From UHGV virus genome UHGV-0142786: a DNA stretch of 10,260 nt, one strand, 5' to 3'. The position numbers were made by a program, and so were the translations under genes. Below the pieces are notes generated by a model. That model saw only the letters and a program-made list of their open reading frames with translations. It was not told the DNA's origin and searched no databases. Origin of the DNA: a virus. Positions 1 through 3,704 of the stretch are shown piece after piece (the first letter of the stretch is position 1; each line of letters begins with the position of its first letter).

Positions 1-217
1 TTAAGGCGAGTTTTCGAATCTTAAGTTTATCTTTCTGTTTCTGCTCCTCTCGTCGCCGTTTCTTCTCTGCTGCTTTTTCCGCTTTTTTTCGCTGTTTACT
101 TTGTAGTTCGAGTGCTAACTGAGTTCCGTGTTCCGGGCAGCACCACCACTGATTTGAGAATGCCGGGTGAAACCATTCCTTGCATATTTTGCATTTCCTT
201 CGCGCTGGTTTAGCCAT
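1..217 (-). CDS. ninG: NinG/Rap recombination endonuclease, N-terminal part; gene runs off the left edge of the window
   Basis: Minus-strand ATG at 217..215 overlaps the upstream stop (TAATG). Translation [72 protein letters not shown] matches my recollection of lambda NinG/Rap N-terminus. Not in the ORF track because it is truncated. Confidence 0.75.
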
Positions 218-939
218 TAAGCAGCCTCCCCTGTTACTTTCAGCATTCCGTTATCGAGCAGCTTTCTGGTCAGCCACTGTTGACCACGCCCGGTGATTTT
301 TGTGGTGAACGATATCTGTATTCCGTGATTTGTGTTGACCGCTGTTTCTTTCACTGTGAAATAGCCGCGATCCATATATTCCTGCATTGGCACATTGCGC
401 CGGGAACCTGAAGCAATAAGGATTTTGTGATCGCGCATCCACGCAAACAGTTTGTTTGGACCAATACCGACAACCTTTGCAAAGTTTCCAATCAAAATTC
501 CGCTGGCCTCGCCAACTCGATCGGCAAACTCAACTTTAGGTGCGGCAATTGCGAGCTGGTTTTCCAGTTGCATTTTCTGCTCAGCAAGATCAGCAGCAAG
601 GCGCAACGCTTCTGGTAGCGTTTTGGGGATATTAACCGCAGCTTCTTCAAGCTCTCGCCAGCGGTCAACAAGGCGAGCGGTGAATTCCGGCGACAACTGG
701 GCAACAACGACAATACTGTCTCGCTTACCTTGTTCGCCTTCGAAGACGTAATGCTCGTACTGAACATTGAACCCTAAGTTATTGATTCTTTCGGAAACCT
801 CAATTTGAGGAAGCCGGATAACACCATTTTTAGCCAGCGTTTCGATGGTACGTTTCACATTGTCATGACGCTTACCCACCAACTCAGCGATTTCAATGCT
901 TGTCATTTTGATGGCATTGCCATTTATTAACTCATTCAT
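217..939 (-). CDS. Phage regulatory protein, Rha family N-terminal domain plus KilA-C/AntA-type antirepressor C-terminal domain (Roi/Ant-like)
   Basis: 240-aa ORF. N-terminal motif [24 protein letters not shown] is typical of the Rha domain; C-terminal [24 protein letters not shown]...GYF is typical of KilA-C. Start ATGAATGA overlaps the ninF stop. Confidence 0.8.
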
Positions 940-1108
940 CGTCTTCTTCCTCGTACATTGAGCTATTCGGATCGCTCATCAGTTCTGCGCAGCAGTGCTC
1001 ACACACGTGAACTTCCAGCACATGCAGCTTTTGACCGCAGTTAGCGCACGTTAAAGCCCGCTCGACGCTTTCTTTCTGGTATTGAAGGGATTGGGATGGG
1101 CTAAGCAT
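932..1108 (-). CDS. ninF: NinF-like small zinc-binding protein (58 aa)
   Basis: Hand translation [58 protein letters not shown] with CxxC...HxxC...C cysteines; matches my recollection of lambda NinF. Below the ORF-track size cutoff. Start overlaps the stop of the upstream ORF. Confidence 0.65.
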   Translation of the reverse strand: MLSPSQSLQYQKESVERALTCANCGQKLHVLEVHVCEHCCAELMSDPNSSMYEEEDDE

Positions 1109-1466
1109 TATTGGCGTCCTGCATCATGAGAAAGACAATCATGGCGGCGCGGAGTGGGTTTTCATCTTGAGTCATATGATATGGGGTACTATCACTGCCA
1201 ACTTTTCTATGCGCTGCCTTCCATAATCCATTTTCTGGCGCTGGAATAATGCCAATTCTGTTCTCTACGATAATCGGCTCTGCGTCTGATGGGCTTTTAC
1301 AGTAATCAACCGTTTTTATTGCATAACCAGTTTCGTCATCCCACTCAACACCAACGATTGATGTTCCCAACTTTGCGATTTCGCAATCTTCGGGAGCAAA
1401 TCCACAGCAAATTGCCACTCGCTTGTTAATTTCAAAATCACTTAACTGTGAATAATCCATTGTCAT
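1101..1466 (-). CDS. Hypothetical nin-region protein (about 120 aa) between ninE and ninF, in the position of P22 NinX
   Basis: ORF 1101..1502 in the track begins in an overlap with ninE. Likely start is the ATG at 1466 (ATGA overlap with the ninE stop) or the ATG at 1460, which has better spacing to a GAGGAA Shine-Dalgarno. No recognised catalytic motif. Confidence 0.55.
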
Positions 1467-1639
1467 TTCCTCGCACGATGTCTTAACCACCGGATATCCC
1501 ACAGGTGAGCCGTGTAGTTGAAGGTTTTTACGTCAGATTCTTTTGGGATTGGCTTGGGTTTATTTCTGGTGCGTTTCGTTGGAAGGTATTTGCAGTTTTC
1601 GCAGATTATGTCGGTGATACTTCGTCGCTGTCTCGCCAC
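1463..1639 (-). CDS. ninE: NinE-like small protein (58 aa), probable GTG start
   Basis: Hand translation (M)[57 protein letters not shown] resembles my recollection of lambda NinE. Start codon uncertain: GTG at 1639 preceded by AAGGAGG. Overlaps the ninD 3' end in another frame; stop TGA overlaps the next start. Confidence 0.5.
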
Positions 1640-1779
1640 ACGTCCTCCTTTTCCTGCGGTAGTGGTAACACCCCTGTTGGTGTTCTTTCACACCGGAGAC
1701 ACCATCGATTCCAGTAAGGTTGATTTGGTCGGAAGCGGTTATCTTCTTTGCATTCACCGCACCGATAACATCGCATCAT
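1606..1779 (-). CDS. ninD: NinD-like small zinc-ribbon protein (57 aa)
   Basis: Hand translation [57 protein letters not shown] with two CxxC pairs. Length equals lambda NinD (orf57) and the ATGA overlap with the ninC stop is as in lambda. Confidence 0.6.
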
Positions 1780-2648
1780 GCAGCTTCCCTCCCGAAGTCG
1801 AAATCAAGCTGCCCTCCAAATATTTCGCATGACTCAGAACAAGAGCCGGTATCGAATCTTTTAGCTCGTACCATGTCCTGATACAGGGCTTGATAATCAT
1901 TTTCTGAATACATTTTCGCGATACCGTCCAGCGACATTCTTCCTCGGTACATAATCTCCTTTGGCGTTTCCCGATGTCCGTCACGCACATGGGATCCCGT
2001 GATGACCTCATTAAAAACACGCTGCAATCCCTCCTCATCTTTGCAGGCAAGTCCGATTTTTTGCGTTGATTTTTTAATGCAGAATATGCAGTTACCGAGA
2101 TGTTCCGGTATTTGCAAATCGAATGGTTGTTGCTTCCACCATGCGAGGATATCTTCCTTCTCAAAGTCTGACAGTTCAGCAAGATATCTGATTCCAGGCT
2201 TTGGCTTTAGCCGCTTCGGTTCATCAGCTCTGATGCCAATCCACGTGGTGTAATTCCCTCGCCCGAAATGGTCATCACAGTATTTGGTGAAGGGAACGAG
2301 TTTTAATCTGTCAGTGCAGAACGCGCCGCCGACGTATGGAGTGCCATATTTCTTTACCATATCGATAAATGGCTTCAGAACAGGCATTCGCGTCTGAATA
2401 TCCTTTGGTTCCCATACCGTATAACCATTTGGCTGTCCAAGCTCCGGGTTGATATCAACCTGCAATACGGTGAGCGGTATATCCCAGAACTTCACAACTT
2501 CCCTGACAAACCGATATGTCATTGGATGTTCACAACCTGTATCCATGAAAACGTAATACACGTCTTCACCTGCCTGTCGCTTTTGCTCCATTAGCCAGAG
2601 TAAATATGCTGACGTCCTGCCACCTGAGAAACTAACGACATTTATCAT
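1776..2648 (-). CDS. ninC: NinC, PAPS-reductase-like family protein (290 aa)
   Basis: Track ORF 1776..2666. True start taken as [17 protein letters not shown] (ATG 2648..2646), which overlaps the HNH stop as [12 protein letters not shown] resembles the PAPS-reductase/ATP-PPase P-loop. Near-identical to my recollection of lambda NinC. Confidence 0.85.
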
Positions 2649-3247
2649 GCAGCCCTGTCTCCCCATCTTGCTTTCATTGTTTCATTTGCAAATCGCCAGA
2701 ATCTTCCTTTGTGATATGAGCTTTCGCCATTACAGCAACGACTAATTGACGAACTATCAAATCCTTCTCTGACAGCATCCATAGCTGCTTCATAATAAAC
2801 CTCCTCACCAGTTTTCATGTCAGTAGAAATAACAGCTTTACTGGCAGGATGATCACCGCTAAATTTACCTAGCGATATAGGTATTCTTCCATTTTGTTTA
2901 TATCCGTGCTTTGAGTTTTCAGAATGTGATACCCATTCAAGGTTTTCAGCCCTATTGTCATCTCTTTGCCCATTTTTGTGATTAACTACCAAGCCATCAC
3001 AGAACCCTGTACAGAATGCTTTCGCAACTATCCTGTGGGCGCTGTATTTCTTACCGTATACCTTTATTTGAAGATATCCTGTCGACTTGCACTTGAATGG
3101 TTTTACGCTAGTGCCATTAATTATTTTCTTATATGGCCTCTGTCTGGTTGATGTTACTGTAACTTCCCTCGTAATAGACCTGAAATTTCCTTTATTGCTA
3201 ACCTGATAAAATGGAATCCCTTCGATATCTACCCAAACCTCAATCAT
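2645..3247 (-). CDS. HNH homing endonuclease (NUMOD4 + HNH_3 type), inserted at the 3' end of ninB
   Basis: 200-aa ORF. N-terminal EVWVDIEGIPFYQVSNKGNFRS resembles NUMOD4; HKNGQRDDNRAENLEWVSHSENSKHG is an HNH_3 motif. Own GGAGG Shine-Dalgarno. The last 9 residues KARWGDRAA equal the lambda NinB C-terminus. Confidence 0.85.
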   Translation of the reverse strand: MIEVWVDIEGIPFYQVSNKGNFRSITREVTVTSTRQRPYKKIINGTSVKPFKCKSTGYLQIKVYGKKYSAHRIVAKAFCTGFCDGLVVNHKNGQRDDNRAENLEWVSHSENSKHGYKQNGRIPISLGKFSGDHPASKAVISTDMKTGEEVYYEAAMDAVREGFDSSSISRCCNGESSYHKGRFWRFANETMKARWGDRAA

Positions 3248-3656
3248 AATTCCTCCATTCGCTAAGATGAATTGAGTTCATGGCACAATATGCTTCTATG
3301 TAGTCCATTATTTCGGATATTTTTTTTACAGATAGAGTCGCCGTACTCTCTCTGATGTTTATTAGCTCACCTTCTAACCCTGATATAATCTCAGGGTGCT
3401 GGTTGGTTGCAATTTGCCAACCAGAAACGAATAACCCCTTCCAAAACTCAATATTTCTTTCTTTTCCATGATATGTGGCCTTCTTACTTATTTCAGATAG
3501 CATCGCGTGAAGGCGTGCATTTTGCCGAATGCTGCGGTTGCGTTCCTGAATGGTTACTACGATTGGTTTGGTTGGGTCTGGAAGAATTTGCTGCACCGCG
3601 TGAATAGCGTTTTGCTGATGTGCTGGAGATCGAATTTCAAAGGTTAGTTTTTTCAT
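3240..3656 (-). CDS. ninB: NinB (Orf-family recombination mediator), mosaic and C-terminally altered
   Basis: Track ORF 3240..3674 starts at a TTG; the ATG at 3656 gives MKKLTFEIRSPAHQQNAIHAVQQILPDPTKPIVVTIQERNRS, identical to the lambda NinB N-terminus as I recall it. The rest is divergent but collinear, and it ends ...LSEWRNYD instead of ...[14 protein letters not shown]. Confidence 0.8.
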   Translation of the reverse strand: MKKLTFEIRSPAHQQNAIHAVQQILPDPTKPIVVTIQERNRSIRQNARLHAMLSEISKKATYHGKERNIEFWKGLFVSGWQIATNQHPEIISGLEGELINIRESTATLSVKKISEIMDYIEAYCAMNSIHLSEWRNYD

Positions 3657-3671
3657 GACTTCCCTCTCCCC

Positions 3672-3704
3672 CAAATAAAAAGGCCTGCGATTACCAGCAG
3701 GCCT
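3672..3704 (-). terminator. Rho-independent terminator on the minus strand between the replication genes and the nin region (tR2 analogue)
   Basis: Stem AGGCCTGC (3681-3688) / GCAGGCCT (3697-3704) with an 8-nt loop; on the minus strand it is followed by TTTTATTTG (rc of 3672-3680). Lies 30 nt downstream of the primase-helicase stop. Confidence 0.65.

What the first reader, a model, noticed from the sequence alone, without database searches (positions are those of the whole stretch)
2645..3674. Free-standing HNH homing endonuclease inserted into the 3' end of ninB, reusing the last nine ninB codons
The NinB-like ORF matches lambda NinB at its N-terminus but ends ...LSEWRNYD*, whereas lambda NinB ends ...[14 protein letters not shown]. 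The HNH ORF starts 8 nt before that stop with its own GGAGG Shine-Dalgarno and ends ...[12 protein letters not shown], followed by the ATGA overlap with ninC as in lambda. The insertion junction is therefore after the EW codons: the endonuclease gene landed inside ninB and its reading frame exits through the native ninB tail. This is a seen-in-sequence footprint of endonuclease invasion of a recombination gene.
Basis: partly seen in the sequence, partly recalled or inferred. Interest (0 to 1): 0.65.

Follow-up and report, generated by a model that had tools for sequence, protein, structure and literature searches.

The report
HNH endonuclease cassette replacing ninB's middle
A prophage recombination gene (ninB) carries an 855-base foreign cassette holding a homing-type HNH endonuclease gene that has no stop codon of its own and ends in the last nine codons of the resident ninB; it is real and neat, but a new example of a known kind of selfish element.

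Summary
On the minus strand, ninB (3656-3240) ends ...LSEWRNYD*. An I-HmuI-like HNH gene (3247-2645) starts 8 nt before that stop behind a GGAGG. It ends ...KARWGDRAA*, and its last 30 nt match the last 30 nt of lambda ninB at 29/30. It then overlaps ninC by ATGA.

What differs from lambda is a replacement, not a simple insertion. Lambda ninB codons 43-137 (284 nt) are replaced by an 855-nt cassette (3530-2676) that holds the 3' two-thirds of a different ninB allele plus HNH codons 1-191. The 'EW' shared with lambda is coincidental: window S132-E133 aligns with lambda S128-D129.

The same cassette is 98-99.8% identical in about 20 phage backbones whose flanks differ. It has identical junctions in ninC- and dam-type backbones. 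It occurs in 77 of 5,426 complete E. coli genomes, against 1,307 with the lambda-type allele.

HNH relatives down to 47% identity always follow an Orf-family gene, and two other HNH lineages use the same slot.

Most likely this is a free-standing homing endonuclease cassette. It is flanked by short conserved arms and translationally embedded in the nin operon. No cleavage has been tested.

The parts
3240..3656 (-). ninB/orf gene, 138 aa. It is mosaic: codons 1-42 are lambda-like, and codons 43-138 belong to a different ('type II') allele that ends WRNYD*.
   Evidence: Pfam NinB E 1e-40. 49% identity to lambda NinB, with the alignment ending at window E133 = lambda D129. Nucleotide homology to lambda covers only 3733-3531.
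3531..3593 (-). Left conserved arm: a 63-nt stretch of ninB (codons 22-42) that is nearly identical in lambda, P27, SEN22 and the window. The left edge of the cassette lies at its 3' end.
   Evidence: Three-way nucleotide comparison. Homology of HNH-less ninB to P27 and L017 ends at ninB nt 126.
2676..3530 (-). The 855-nt cassette: type II ninB codons 43-138 plus HNH codons 1-191. It stands in place of lambda ninB codons 43-137 (284 nt).
   Evidence: No lambda nucleotide similarity here. 98-99.8% identical across about 20 backbones whose flanks are 56-99% (ninB 5' part), 83-93% (tail) or unrelated (downstream).
3252..3256 (-). GGAGG Shine-Dalgarno of the HNH gene, lying inside the ninB codons W134-R135.
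   Evidence: Read directly from the sequence. The same TGGAGR-N-TAT-R-ATG layout occurs in front of three different HNH lineages.
2645..3247 (-). HNH endonuclease ORF, 200 aa, I-HmuI-like (NUMOD4 + HNH_3 + C-terminal DNA-binding region). It overlaps the ninB stop by 8 nt and has no stop codon of its own.
   Evidence: Pfam. PDB 1U3E E 4e-14, query residues 55-186 aligned. PADLOC HEase E 1e-26, residues 5-190. H90, N102 and N111 invariant. dN/dS 0.08 against P27.
2645..2674 (-). The last nine codons plus stop of a lambda-type ninB (KARWGDRAA*), now read as the C-terminus of the HNH protein. This is the right conserved arm. It contains the purine-rich GGGGAG (2664-2659) upstream of the ninC ATG.
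   Evidence: 29/30 identical to lambda and contiguous with the ninC homology block. Its variants partly follow the downstream gene. It lies outside every HNH profile or structure alignment.
1776..2648 (-). ninC (PAPS-reductase-like). Its ATG overlaps the HNH stop as ATGA.
   Evidence: 99.4% identical to lambda ninC. Pfam PAPS_reduct. Lambda annotation.

Best explanation
This is a free-standing, I-HmuI-like HNH homing-endonuclease gene. It travels as an 855-nt cassette together with the 3' two-thirds of its own (type II) ninB allele.

Shown:
- The cassette sits between two short segments shared with HNH-less lambda-type ninB genes: 63 nt of the 5' part of ninB and the last 30 nt of ninB.
- In each backbone it stands in place of ninB codons 43-137.
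- The HNH ORF starts from a GGAGG and an ATG that overlap the end of the shortened ninB. It has no stop of its own and runs in frame through the resident ninB's last nine codons to the ATGA.

Inferred:
- The tail is retained because it carries the ribosome-binding region and start codon of the downstream gene (ninC here; dam in other backbones). Reading through it keeps stop-start coupling in the nin operon.
- The tail has no role in the enzyme itself.
- During co-infection, or infection of a lysogen, the endonuclease nicks or cuts the HNH-less (lambda-type) locus. Repair from the HNH-bearing copy then co-converts the whole cassette, with crossovers in the two conserved arms. This would be 'intronless homing' as in T4 MobE/Seg.
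For: Enzyme type:
- NUMOD4 + HNH_3; I-HmuI 1U3E E 4e-14; PADLOC 'homing endonuclease' E 1e-26.
- Catalytic His and metal-binding Asn are invariant across relatives at 55-99% identity.
- Purifying selection: dN/dS 0.08 against P27, and dS saturated with dN 0.14-0.44 in distant pairs.

Cassette:
- Lambda homology stops at 3531 and resumes at 2675.
- Against P27, the core is 98.6% identical while ninB codons 1-42 are 84.5% and the tail 86.7%.
- The same pattern holds in about 20 backbones with unrelated downstream genes.
- Junctions are identical in a dam-type backbone: P27 against the HNH-less E. coli 14EC047 locus, with homology resuming 31 nt before the ninB stop and ending at ninB nt 126.

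Presence/absence:
- In complete E. coli genomes the lambda-type ninB middle is in 1,307 genomes and the cassette in 77.

Tail is outside the enzyme:
- Homologues in other contexts end ...WRFA*.
- Tails range from 2 codons (SEN22) to 22 codons (L093).

Mobility of HNH genes into this slot:
- In L093 a different HNH_3+AP2 gene follows a complete ninB, yet ends in the last 22 codons of another ninB allele. That is 89% nucleotide identity to L164 over 549 nt running into the next gene.
- Three HNH lineages use the same start layout behind type II ninB.
- 54 of 55 IMG/VR relatives at 47% identity or more sit directly after an Orf-family gene; 0 of 22 more distant relatives do.

Known precedent: free-standing HEGs mobilise themselves and flanking DNA (PMC2790892 abstract), and nuclease genes mark exchange boundaries in phages (PMC10448857).
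Against: - No cleavage activity or target site is known.
- No HNH-free copy of the type II ninB allele was found anywhere. It was absent from 77 E. coli genomes, about 65 phage records, and 32 of 32 IMG/VR loci at 56% identity or more. Within that clade the pair looks stably co-inherited rather than actively invading.
- The cassette is a minority allele, about 5% of ninB loci in E. coli, and is not sweeping.
- Discrete, highly conserved modules bounded by short conserved sequences are typical of lambdoid nin regions with or without a nuclease. Ordinary recombination could therefore explain the distribution.
- The residue matching I-HmuI Asp74 is Asn in all members.
- The linkage of HNH to type II ninB is uninformative, because the two ninB middles share no homology in which a crossover could occur.
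Confidence: 0.6

Rival explanations
1. Functional partnership. The HNH nuclease is a domesticated working partner of the Orf-family recombination mediator. It would be a two-gene version of the NinB-HNH fusion proteins of Gram-positive phages: the nuclease makes nicks or breaks and NinB loads RecA or Red-beta there. The cassette would then spread by ordinary mosaic recombination because it is useful, not because it is selfish.
For: - All 54 intact relatives at 47% identity or more lie directly after an Orf-family gene. This includes very divergent NinBs and DUF1367 (phrog_319, annotated NinB/Orf), where a shared nucleotide target is implausible.
- No type II ninB lacks an HNH gene.
- Purifying selection is strong.
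- NinB+HNH fusions are documented (PMC2034487; DUF968 in PMC4118853). One of them, PhiNM1 Gp16, is a RecA-dependent nuclease that benefits the phage (PMC12817073).
- The type II NinB lacks the counterpart of the lambda Orf 130-146 helix end, which contributes to DNA binding.
Against: - The architectures are those of homing endonucleases with their own DNA-binding modules: NUMOD4/I-HmuI-like, and HNH_3+AP2. They are not the small zinc-finger HNH of DUF968.
- Three unrelated HNH lineages are interchangeable in the slot.
- Most NinB genes have no HNH gene: 1,307 against 77 E. coli genomes.
- Two loci keep an intact HNH behind a frameshifted ninB (A8 to A7), and one has the HNH cut by IS5.
- Remnants of another ninB allele's tail point to insertion history.
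Confidence: 0.22
2. Passive mosaic module. A single illegitimate recombination once joined the 3' end of an HNH gene to codon 138 of a lambda-type ninB. The resulting block now moves only by general recombination (Red or RecA) between conserved nin-region boundary sequences. The endonuclease would play no part in its spread, and the shared codons would be an accident that was tolerated.
For: - Right-hand junctions differ between lineages: 2, 9, about 16 and 22 retained ninB codons.
- Tail variants are recombinant mixtures: APC_JM3.2 has a hybrid tail.
- Many nin genes end ...AA* with an ATGA overlap.
- Many HNH-less NinB relatives have naturally short C-termini, so type II ninB need not have been truncated.
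- The lambda-type ninB module is equally well conserved across backbones.
Against: - The HNH ORF is intact in all 80 E. coli copies, each covering at least 80% of the query at 95% identity or more.
- It is under purifying selection over deep divergence, which implies an activity that matters.
- Repeated occupation of the same slot by different HNH lineages is hard to ascribe to chance.
Confidence: 0.15

Closest known systems
I-HmuI (Bacillus phage SPO1 intron-encoded HNH homing endonuclease, PDB 1U3E)
   Same: The sequence aligns over HNH residues 55-186 to 36-170 of the 174-residue chain, E 4e-14. The order of domains is the same: HNH core, then a C-terminal DNA-binding region, with a weak Pfam I-HmuI_NUMOD-like hit. 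The catalytic His (H90 = H75) and the Asn (N111 = N96) are conserved; the residue roles are from memory of the I-HmuI structure paper.
   Different: It is free-standing in an operon, not inside a group I intron. Asn replaces I-HmuI Asp74. It has an N-terminal NUMOD4 and a 13-14 residue C-terminal extension beyond the conserved ...WRFA end of the enzyme, the last nine residues of which are encoded by the neighbouring gene's remnant. Activity is untested.
T4-type free-standing homing endonucleases with 'intronless homing' (MobE, SegG and others; PMC2790892, PMC2988022)
   Same: A free-standing nuclease gene sits next to a diverged allele of a conserved phage gene. The mobile unit includes flanking host-gene sequence (co-conversion). 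There is a discrete presence/absence polymorphism between related phages.
   Different: This ORF has no stop codon of its own. It is spliced translationally between ninB and the next gene, sharing codons with both ends. It occurs in temperate lambdoid phages. Homing has not been demonstrated.
NinB-HNH fusion proteins (DUF968; S. aureus PhiNM1 Gp16) (PMC2034487, PMC4118853, PMC12817073)
   Same: An Orf-family recombination mediator is physically linked to an HNH nuclease.
   Different: Those are single polypeptides with a small zinc-finger HNH, found in Gram-positive phages. Here there are two ORFs in different frames, and the nuclease is a homing-type HNH_3 with its own DNA-binding domains. 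There was no DUF968 hit.
Phage epsilon34 gene 31 (EaE N-terminus fused in frame to an HNH homing endonuclease; PMC2629481)
   Same: In a P22-like phage, an HNH homing-endonuclease ORF is joined in frame to a fragment of a resident gene.
   Different: That fusion is at the N-terminus and in the early-left operon. Here the borrowed codons are at the C-terminus and come from ninB.
Nuclease genes at boundaries of genetic exchange in ICP1 phages (PMC10448857)
   Same: The HNH gene lies exactly at a mosaic boundary: the ninB allele changes on one side and the downstream gene varies on the other.
   Different: A different phage group and different nuclease families. In lambdoid nin regions almost every gene boundary is a mosaic boundary anyway.

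Membership tests
HNH homing endonuclease, I-HmuI-like | HNH (beta-beta-alpha-metal) core with the catalytic His and metal-binding Asn | tested here: met
   Pfam HNH_3 E 8e-12. H90, N102 and N111 align with I-HmuI H75, N87 and N96 and are invariant in 5 relatives. The Asp74 position is Asn.
HNH homing endonuclease, I-HmuI-like | Extended DNA-binding modules flanking the nuclease core (NUMOD-type) | tested here: met
   NUMOD4 E 1.5e-13. I-HmuI_NUMOD-like scores 19.3 bits, below the 27-bit cut-off, but the PDB alignment runs to residue 170 of 174, and phrog_3855 'HTH DNA binding protein' matches residues 134-188.
HNH homing endonuclease, I-HmuI-like | Presence/absence polymorphism at a fixed site between otherwise homologous genomes | tested here: met
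   Junctions are identical against HNH-less lambda (ninC backbone) and against E. coli 14EC047 (dam backbone). However, the HNH-less allele carries a different ninB middle, and no empty copy of the type II allele was found.
HNH homing endonuclease, I-HmuI-like | Site-specific cleavage or nicking of the endonuclease-less allele, and biased inheritance | not testable with these tools
   Needs an enzyme assay and phage crosses.
Free-standing HEG with co-conversion ('intronless homing') | Not inside an intron or intein; the adjacent host gene differs between HEG+ and HEG- genomes; the mobile unit has discrete ends in flanking homology | tested here: met
   It is a separate ORF. Type II versus lambda-type ninB from codon 43. 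Core 98-99.8% identical against variable flanks in about 20 backbones.
NinB/Orf recombination mediator (upstream gene) | NinB (RAGNYA) core domain | tested here: met
   Pfam NinB E 1e-40, profile positions 2-129 of 131. dN/dS 0.06-0.17.
NinB/Orf recombination mediator (upstream gene) | Lambda-like end of the C-terminal helix (residues 130-146, including R132, W137, R140, W141) | tested here: not met
   The alignment ends at window E133 = lambda D129, followed by the unrelated WRNYD. Many HNH-less NinB relatives also have short tails, so this is within the family's range.
NinB-HNH fusion (DUF968 / Gp16 type) | A single polypeptide with an N-terminal Orf-like domain and a C-terminal zinc-finger HNH | tested here: not met
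   There are two ORFs in different frames with an 8-nt overlap. No DUF968 hit; the HNH is the HNH_3/NUMOD4 type. No conserved frameshift site: the stop position and context differ between lineages.

The most novel reading that the evidence does not exclude
The slot behind Orf-family genes may be more than a parking place for selfish nucleases. It could be a conserved two-gene 'nick-and-load' recombination module. A site-specific HNH nickase, swappable between at least three lineages, would create the lesion. The adjacent NinB/Orf mediator would load RecA or Red-beta on it. This would be the split, Gram-negative counterpart of the NinB-HNH fusion nuclease Gp16, and it would make endonuclease-driven exchange a direct cause of mosaicism in the lambdoid nin region.
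Probability: 0.15. Interest if true: 0.7.

Novelty: new member of a known kind. Interest (0 to 1): 0.45.

Why it matters
Lambdoid phages are the textbook case of genome mosaicism, yet what starts the exchanges is still debated. This locus is a compact, naturally biallelic case: 77 cassette-bearing against 1,307 lambda-type E. coli genomes. A homing-type nuclease sits exactly between two short conserved arms inside a recombination gene.

Lambda genetics makes it easy to test three things: whether a nuclease drives allele replacement, how long the co-conversion tracts are, and whether 30-63 nt arms are enough.

It also shows how a nuclease gene can be inserted into a tightly coupled operon without polar damage. 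It borrows the neighbour's last codons, the ribosome-binding region and the ATGA stop-start.

For annotation, the short NinB and the odd C-terminus of the 'NUMOD4 domain-containing protein' are real features and not errors.

Tried and rejected
1. 'Insertion right after lambda's E136-W137' is rejected. Pairwise and multiple alignments put window S-E opposite lambda S128-D129.
2. I searched for an HNH-free copy of the type II ninB allele, using a synthetic empty-site query against phages and complete E. coli genomes, and IMG/VR loci. None was found.
3. 'Type II NinB was truncated by the insertion' cannot be claimed. Many HNH-less NinB relatives have equally short C-termini.
4. 'All HNH tails are ninB remnants' holds only in part.
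   - It is solid for the window and P27 (nucleotide identity) and for L093.
   - It is marginal for L007/L008 (profile E 0.04-0.12 in a 20-sequence search).
   - It is unsupported for the Pantoea tail.
   - SEN22 shares only about 5 nt with the P22 ninB end.
5. A programmed +1 frameshift making a NinB-HNH fusion is rejected. The HNH frame is open for only about 10 codons upstream, there is no slippery or prfB-like site, and the stop position and context differ between lineages.
6. Linkage of HNH to type II ninB as evidence for self-protection is uninformative. The two ninB middles share no nucleotide homology in which a crossover could separate them.
7. The genome-contig scan with the single HNH protein returned one distant hit only and was of no use.
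8. Literature searches found HNH boxes drawn in ninR maps (PMC4118853) and NinB-HNH fusions. They found no description of this cassette, its junctions or the shared codons. The library does not hold most subscription-journal papers.
Full report
**What is there**

All genes in this part of the window are on the minus strand.
- ninB runs 3656-3240, taking the lambda-equivalent ATG; the mechanical ORF starts at a TTG at 3674. It gives a 138-aa NinB/Orf protein (Pfam NinB, E 1e-40) ending LSEWRNYD*.
- The next ORF, 3247-2645, encodes a 200-aa protein with NUMOD4 and HNH_3 domains.
- Its ATG lies 8 nt before the end of the ninB stop. GGAGG (3256-3252) sits four nt upstream of the ATG.
- The protein ends ...[15 protein letters not shown], and its TGA overlaps the ninC ATG as ATGA.
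- Lambda NinB ends ...[14 protein letters not shown].
- At the nucleotide level, the last 30 nt of the HNH ORF match lambda's last 30 nt of ninB at 29/30. They belong to one 976-nt block of 99.4% identity that continues through ninC.

**What differs from lambda**

Nucleotide homology to lambda covers window 3733-3531 at 98%. That is the ren-ninB spacer plus ninB codons 1-42. It also covers 2675-1700. Nothing between 3530 and 2676 is detectably similar.

That 855-nt interval holds ninB codons 43-138 of a different allele, called type II here, which is 49% identical in protein to lambda overall. It also holds HNH codons 1-191. It stands where lambda has 284 nt (ninB codons 43-137).

BLASTP and a 21-sequence alignment place window I-H-L-S-E opposite lambda V125-K126-W127-S128-D129. 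The codons W-R-N-Y-D (TGG AGG AAT TAT GAT) encode the Shine-Dalgarno sequence and start codon of the HNH gene.

The event is a cassette replacement, not an insertion into an otherwise lambda-like ninB.

**The cassette is a discrete unit found in many backbones**

Against Stx phage P27, identity by segment is:

| Segment | Identity to the window |
|---|---|
| type II ninB part | 98.6% |
| HNH part | 98.6% |
| ninB codons 1-42 | 84.5% |
| 30-nt tail | 86.7% |

In P27 the downstream gene is dam, not ninC.

Across about 20 distinct backbones (phage records and IMG/VR contigs) the core stays 98-99.8% identical to the window. Meanwhile ninB codons 1-42 range from 56% to 99%, the tail from 83% to 93%, and the downstream DNA is often unrelated.

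A 63-nt stretch (window 3593-3531) is nearly identical in lambda, P27, SEN22 and the window. The 30-nt tail is conserved, with variants that partly follow the downstream gene, including a hybrid tail in APC_JM3.2.

An HNH-less counterpart also exists for the dam backbone. In E. coli 14EC047, a lambda-type ninB is followed by dam. Its homology to P27 ends at ninB nt 126 and resumes 31 nt before the ninB stop. These are the same two junctions as in window versus lambda.

In 5,426 complete E. coli genomes, the lambda-type ninB middle is in 1,307 and the HNH segment in 77. The type II ninB segment is likewise found in 77 genomes at at least 80% coverage, and in every listed record its match breaks off at the HNH junction, so no empty type II site was seen.

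**The enzyme**

- The protein aligns to I-HmuI (PDB 1U3E) at E 4e-14, over residues 55-186.
- It matches a PADLOC 'homing endonuclease' model at E 1e-26, over residues 5-190.
- It matches PHROG HNH families.
- H90, N102 and N111 align with I-HmuI H75, N87 and N96 and are invariant in relatives at 55-99% identity. The position of I-HmuI Asp74 is Asn in all of them.
- dN/dS against P27 is 0.08. In distant pairs dS is saturated while dN is 0.14-0.44, so the gene is under purifying selection.
- Homologues outside this genomic context end ...W(R/K)(F/Y)A*. All profile and structure alignments stop before residue 191. The nine borrowed residues are therefore an appendage and not part of the fold.

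**Comparative picture**

- Every type II NinB relative at 56-99% identity carries an HNH gene overlapping its stop. This covers Salmonella SEN22, Yersinia kristensenii, Pantoea and metagenomes: 32 of 32 IMG/VR loci plus those reached through protein look-ups.
- None of the 48 more distant relatives has an adjacent HNH gene, and many of those have naturally short C-termini. I therefore cannot say that type II NinB was truncated.
- Of 55 IMG/VR homologues of the HNH protein at 47% identity or more, 54 sit directly after an Orf-family gene, and one is cut by IS5. The Orf-family genes are NinB of very different types, or DUF1367, which PHROGs files as NinB/Orf. None of the 22 more distant homologues sits there.
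- Two other HNH lineages occupy the same slot behind type II ninB with the same TGGAGR..TAT.ATG start layout. One is an HNH_3+AP2 protein (L007, L008, L093, L095). The other is a third type (L205).
- The clearest mobility footprint is L093. There ninB is complete, yet the HNH_3+AP2 gene behind it ends in the last 22 codons of a different ninB allele. That stretch is 89% identical in nucleotides to L164 over 549 nt, running into the next gene.
- Retained tails vary between lineages: about 2 codons in SEN22, 9 here, about 16 in L007/L008 (only marginal statistical support), and 22 in L093.

**Most likely mechanism**

- Shown: the anatomy, the cassette boundaries, the polymorphism, and the enzyme family.
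- Inferred, translation: the tail is kept because it holds the purine-rich ribosome-binding region (GGGGAG, 2664-2659) and the ATG of the downstream gene. Reading through it in frame ends translation exactly at the ATGA, which preserves stop-start coupling in the nin operon. In one of the other two frames the HNH ORF would run on into NinC; in the other it would stop four codons into ninC (read from the sequence).
- Inferred, spread: the nuclease nicks or cuts the HNH-less locus during co-infection. Repair from the cassette-bearing copy co-converts the whole 855 nt, with crossovers in the 63-nt and 30-nt arms, as in T4 'intronless homing' (PMC2790892, PMC2988022).

I put this at about 0.6.

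**Rivals**

1. A working partnership between the nuclease and the Orf-family mediator, about 0.22.
   - It is supported by the strict adjacency to Orf-family genes that are too divergent to share a nucleotide target.
   - It is also supported by known NinB-HNH fusions (PMC2034487, PMC4118853) and by the RecA-dependent nuclease Gp16 (PMC12817073).
   - Against it: the homing-type architectures, the interchangeability of three HNH lineages, and two loci with a frameshifted ninB but an intact HNH gene.
2. A passive mosaic module created by one illegitimate join and spread by general recombination, about 0.15.
   - It is supported by the variable right junctions and by the generally modular nin region.
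   - Against it: long-term purifying selection, and repeated occupation of the slot.

**Known or new**

The gene pair is already annotated in public records: 'NinB' plus 'HNH endonuclease', 'HNH homing endonuclease' or 'NUMOD4 domain-containing protein'. HNH boxes also appear in published ninR maps (PMC4118853).

In the searchable literature I found no description of the cassette boundaries, the shared codons or the multi-lineage slot. That library is incomplete.

This is a new, well-delimited member of a known kind, the free-standing homing endonuclease cassette. Its unusual feature is translational embedding. Its practical attraction is that it sits in lambda-type phages, where it can be tested directly.

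Noticed in passing
window 3681-3704 (minus strand): A strong intrinsic-terminator-like hairpin (AGGCCTGC...GCAGGCCT followed by TTTTTATTT) lies between the primase/helicase gene and ninB. It falls inside the stretch that is 98% identical to the lambda ren-ninB spacer, so it is probably the tR2 equivalent.
   Followed up: partly
L093 2409-3061 (IMG/VR 3300028585_000033); L164 583-650: A complete ninB is followed by an HNH_3+AP2 endonuclease gene whose last 22 codons are the tail of a different ninB allele. The locus therefore holds two ninB tails in tandem, separated by the nuclease gene.
   Followed up: yes
L205 1895-2400 (IMG/VR 2737471838_000004): A third HNH lineage (MVDWHYYFEYREGFLYWK...) overlaps the stop of a type II-like ninB (ends STWRVYNG*) by the same 8 nt. 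It ends ...YWGQ* with a TAATG overlap.
   Followed up: partly
L040 about 1290-2500 (also held as L190): An IS5-type transposase (326 aa, MSHQLTFADSEF...) is inserted in the HNH gene near codon 46. This is the only disrupted copy seen among about 30 close IMG/VR copies.
   Followed up: partly
window 3327-3320 (A8 run in ninB); L200 and L202: ninB contains an A8 homopolymer. Two IMG/VR copies have A7, which frameshifts NinB (ends ...KKYPK*) while the HNH gene behind stays intact. This could be a real inactivation or a sequencing error.
   Followed up: partly
L041, L042, L044, L045, L051 (positions 2044-2493): HNH relatives at 63-69% identity follow a 149-aa DUF1367 protein (phrog_319 'NinB/Orf') instead of NinB, with a 7-nt gap rather than an overlap. 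The L041 HNH ends ...DERMAA*, as in Salmonella phage SEN22, where the upstream gene is NinB.
   Followed up: partly
L019 1996-2508 (protein P0006): A third kind of ninB 5' end (MKCVKYHLTNESIRYNAIQYLRTCDLDIIVEFKQRNRS) is joined to the same type II core at the same codon 42/43 junction. ninB is thus internally mosaic at this point in at least three combinations.
   Followed up: partly
window 2666-2646: An in-frame ATG in the ninC reading frame lies 18 nt upstream of the canonical ninC start, inside the ninB-derived tail, giving the 296-aa ORF listed mechanically. The same sequence is present in lambda.
   Followed up: no
window 217-1640 and L042 3082-4543: The genes downstream of ninC in the window are a NinD/NinE-like gene, a small Cys-rich ORF and a 240-aa antirepressor-like protein ([25 protein letters not shown]...). 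They recur nearly identical directly behind the DUF1367-linked HNH gene in L042, another sign of module shuffling around this slot.
   Followed up: no
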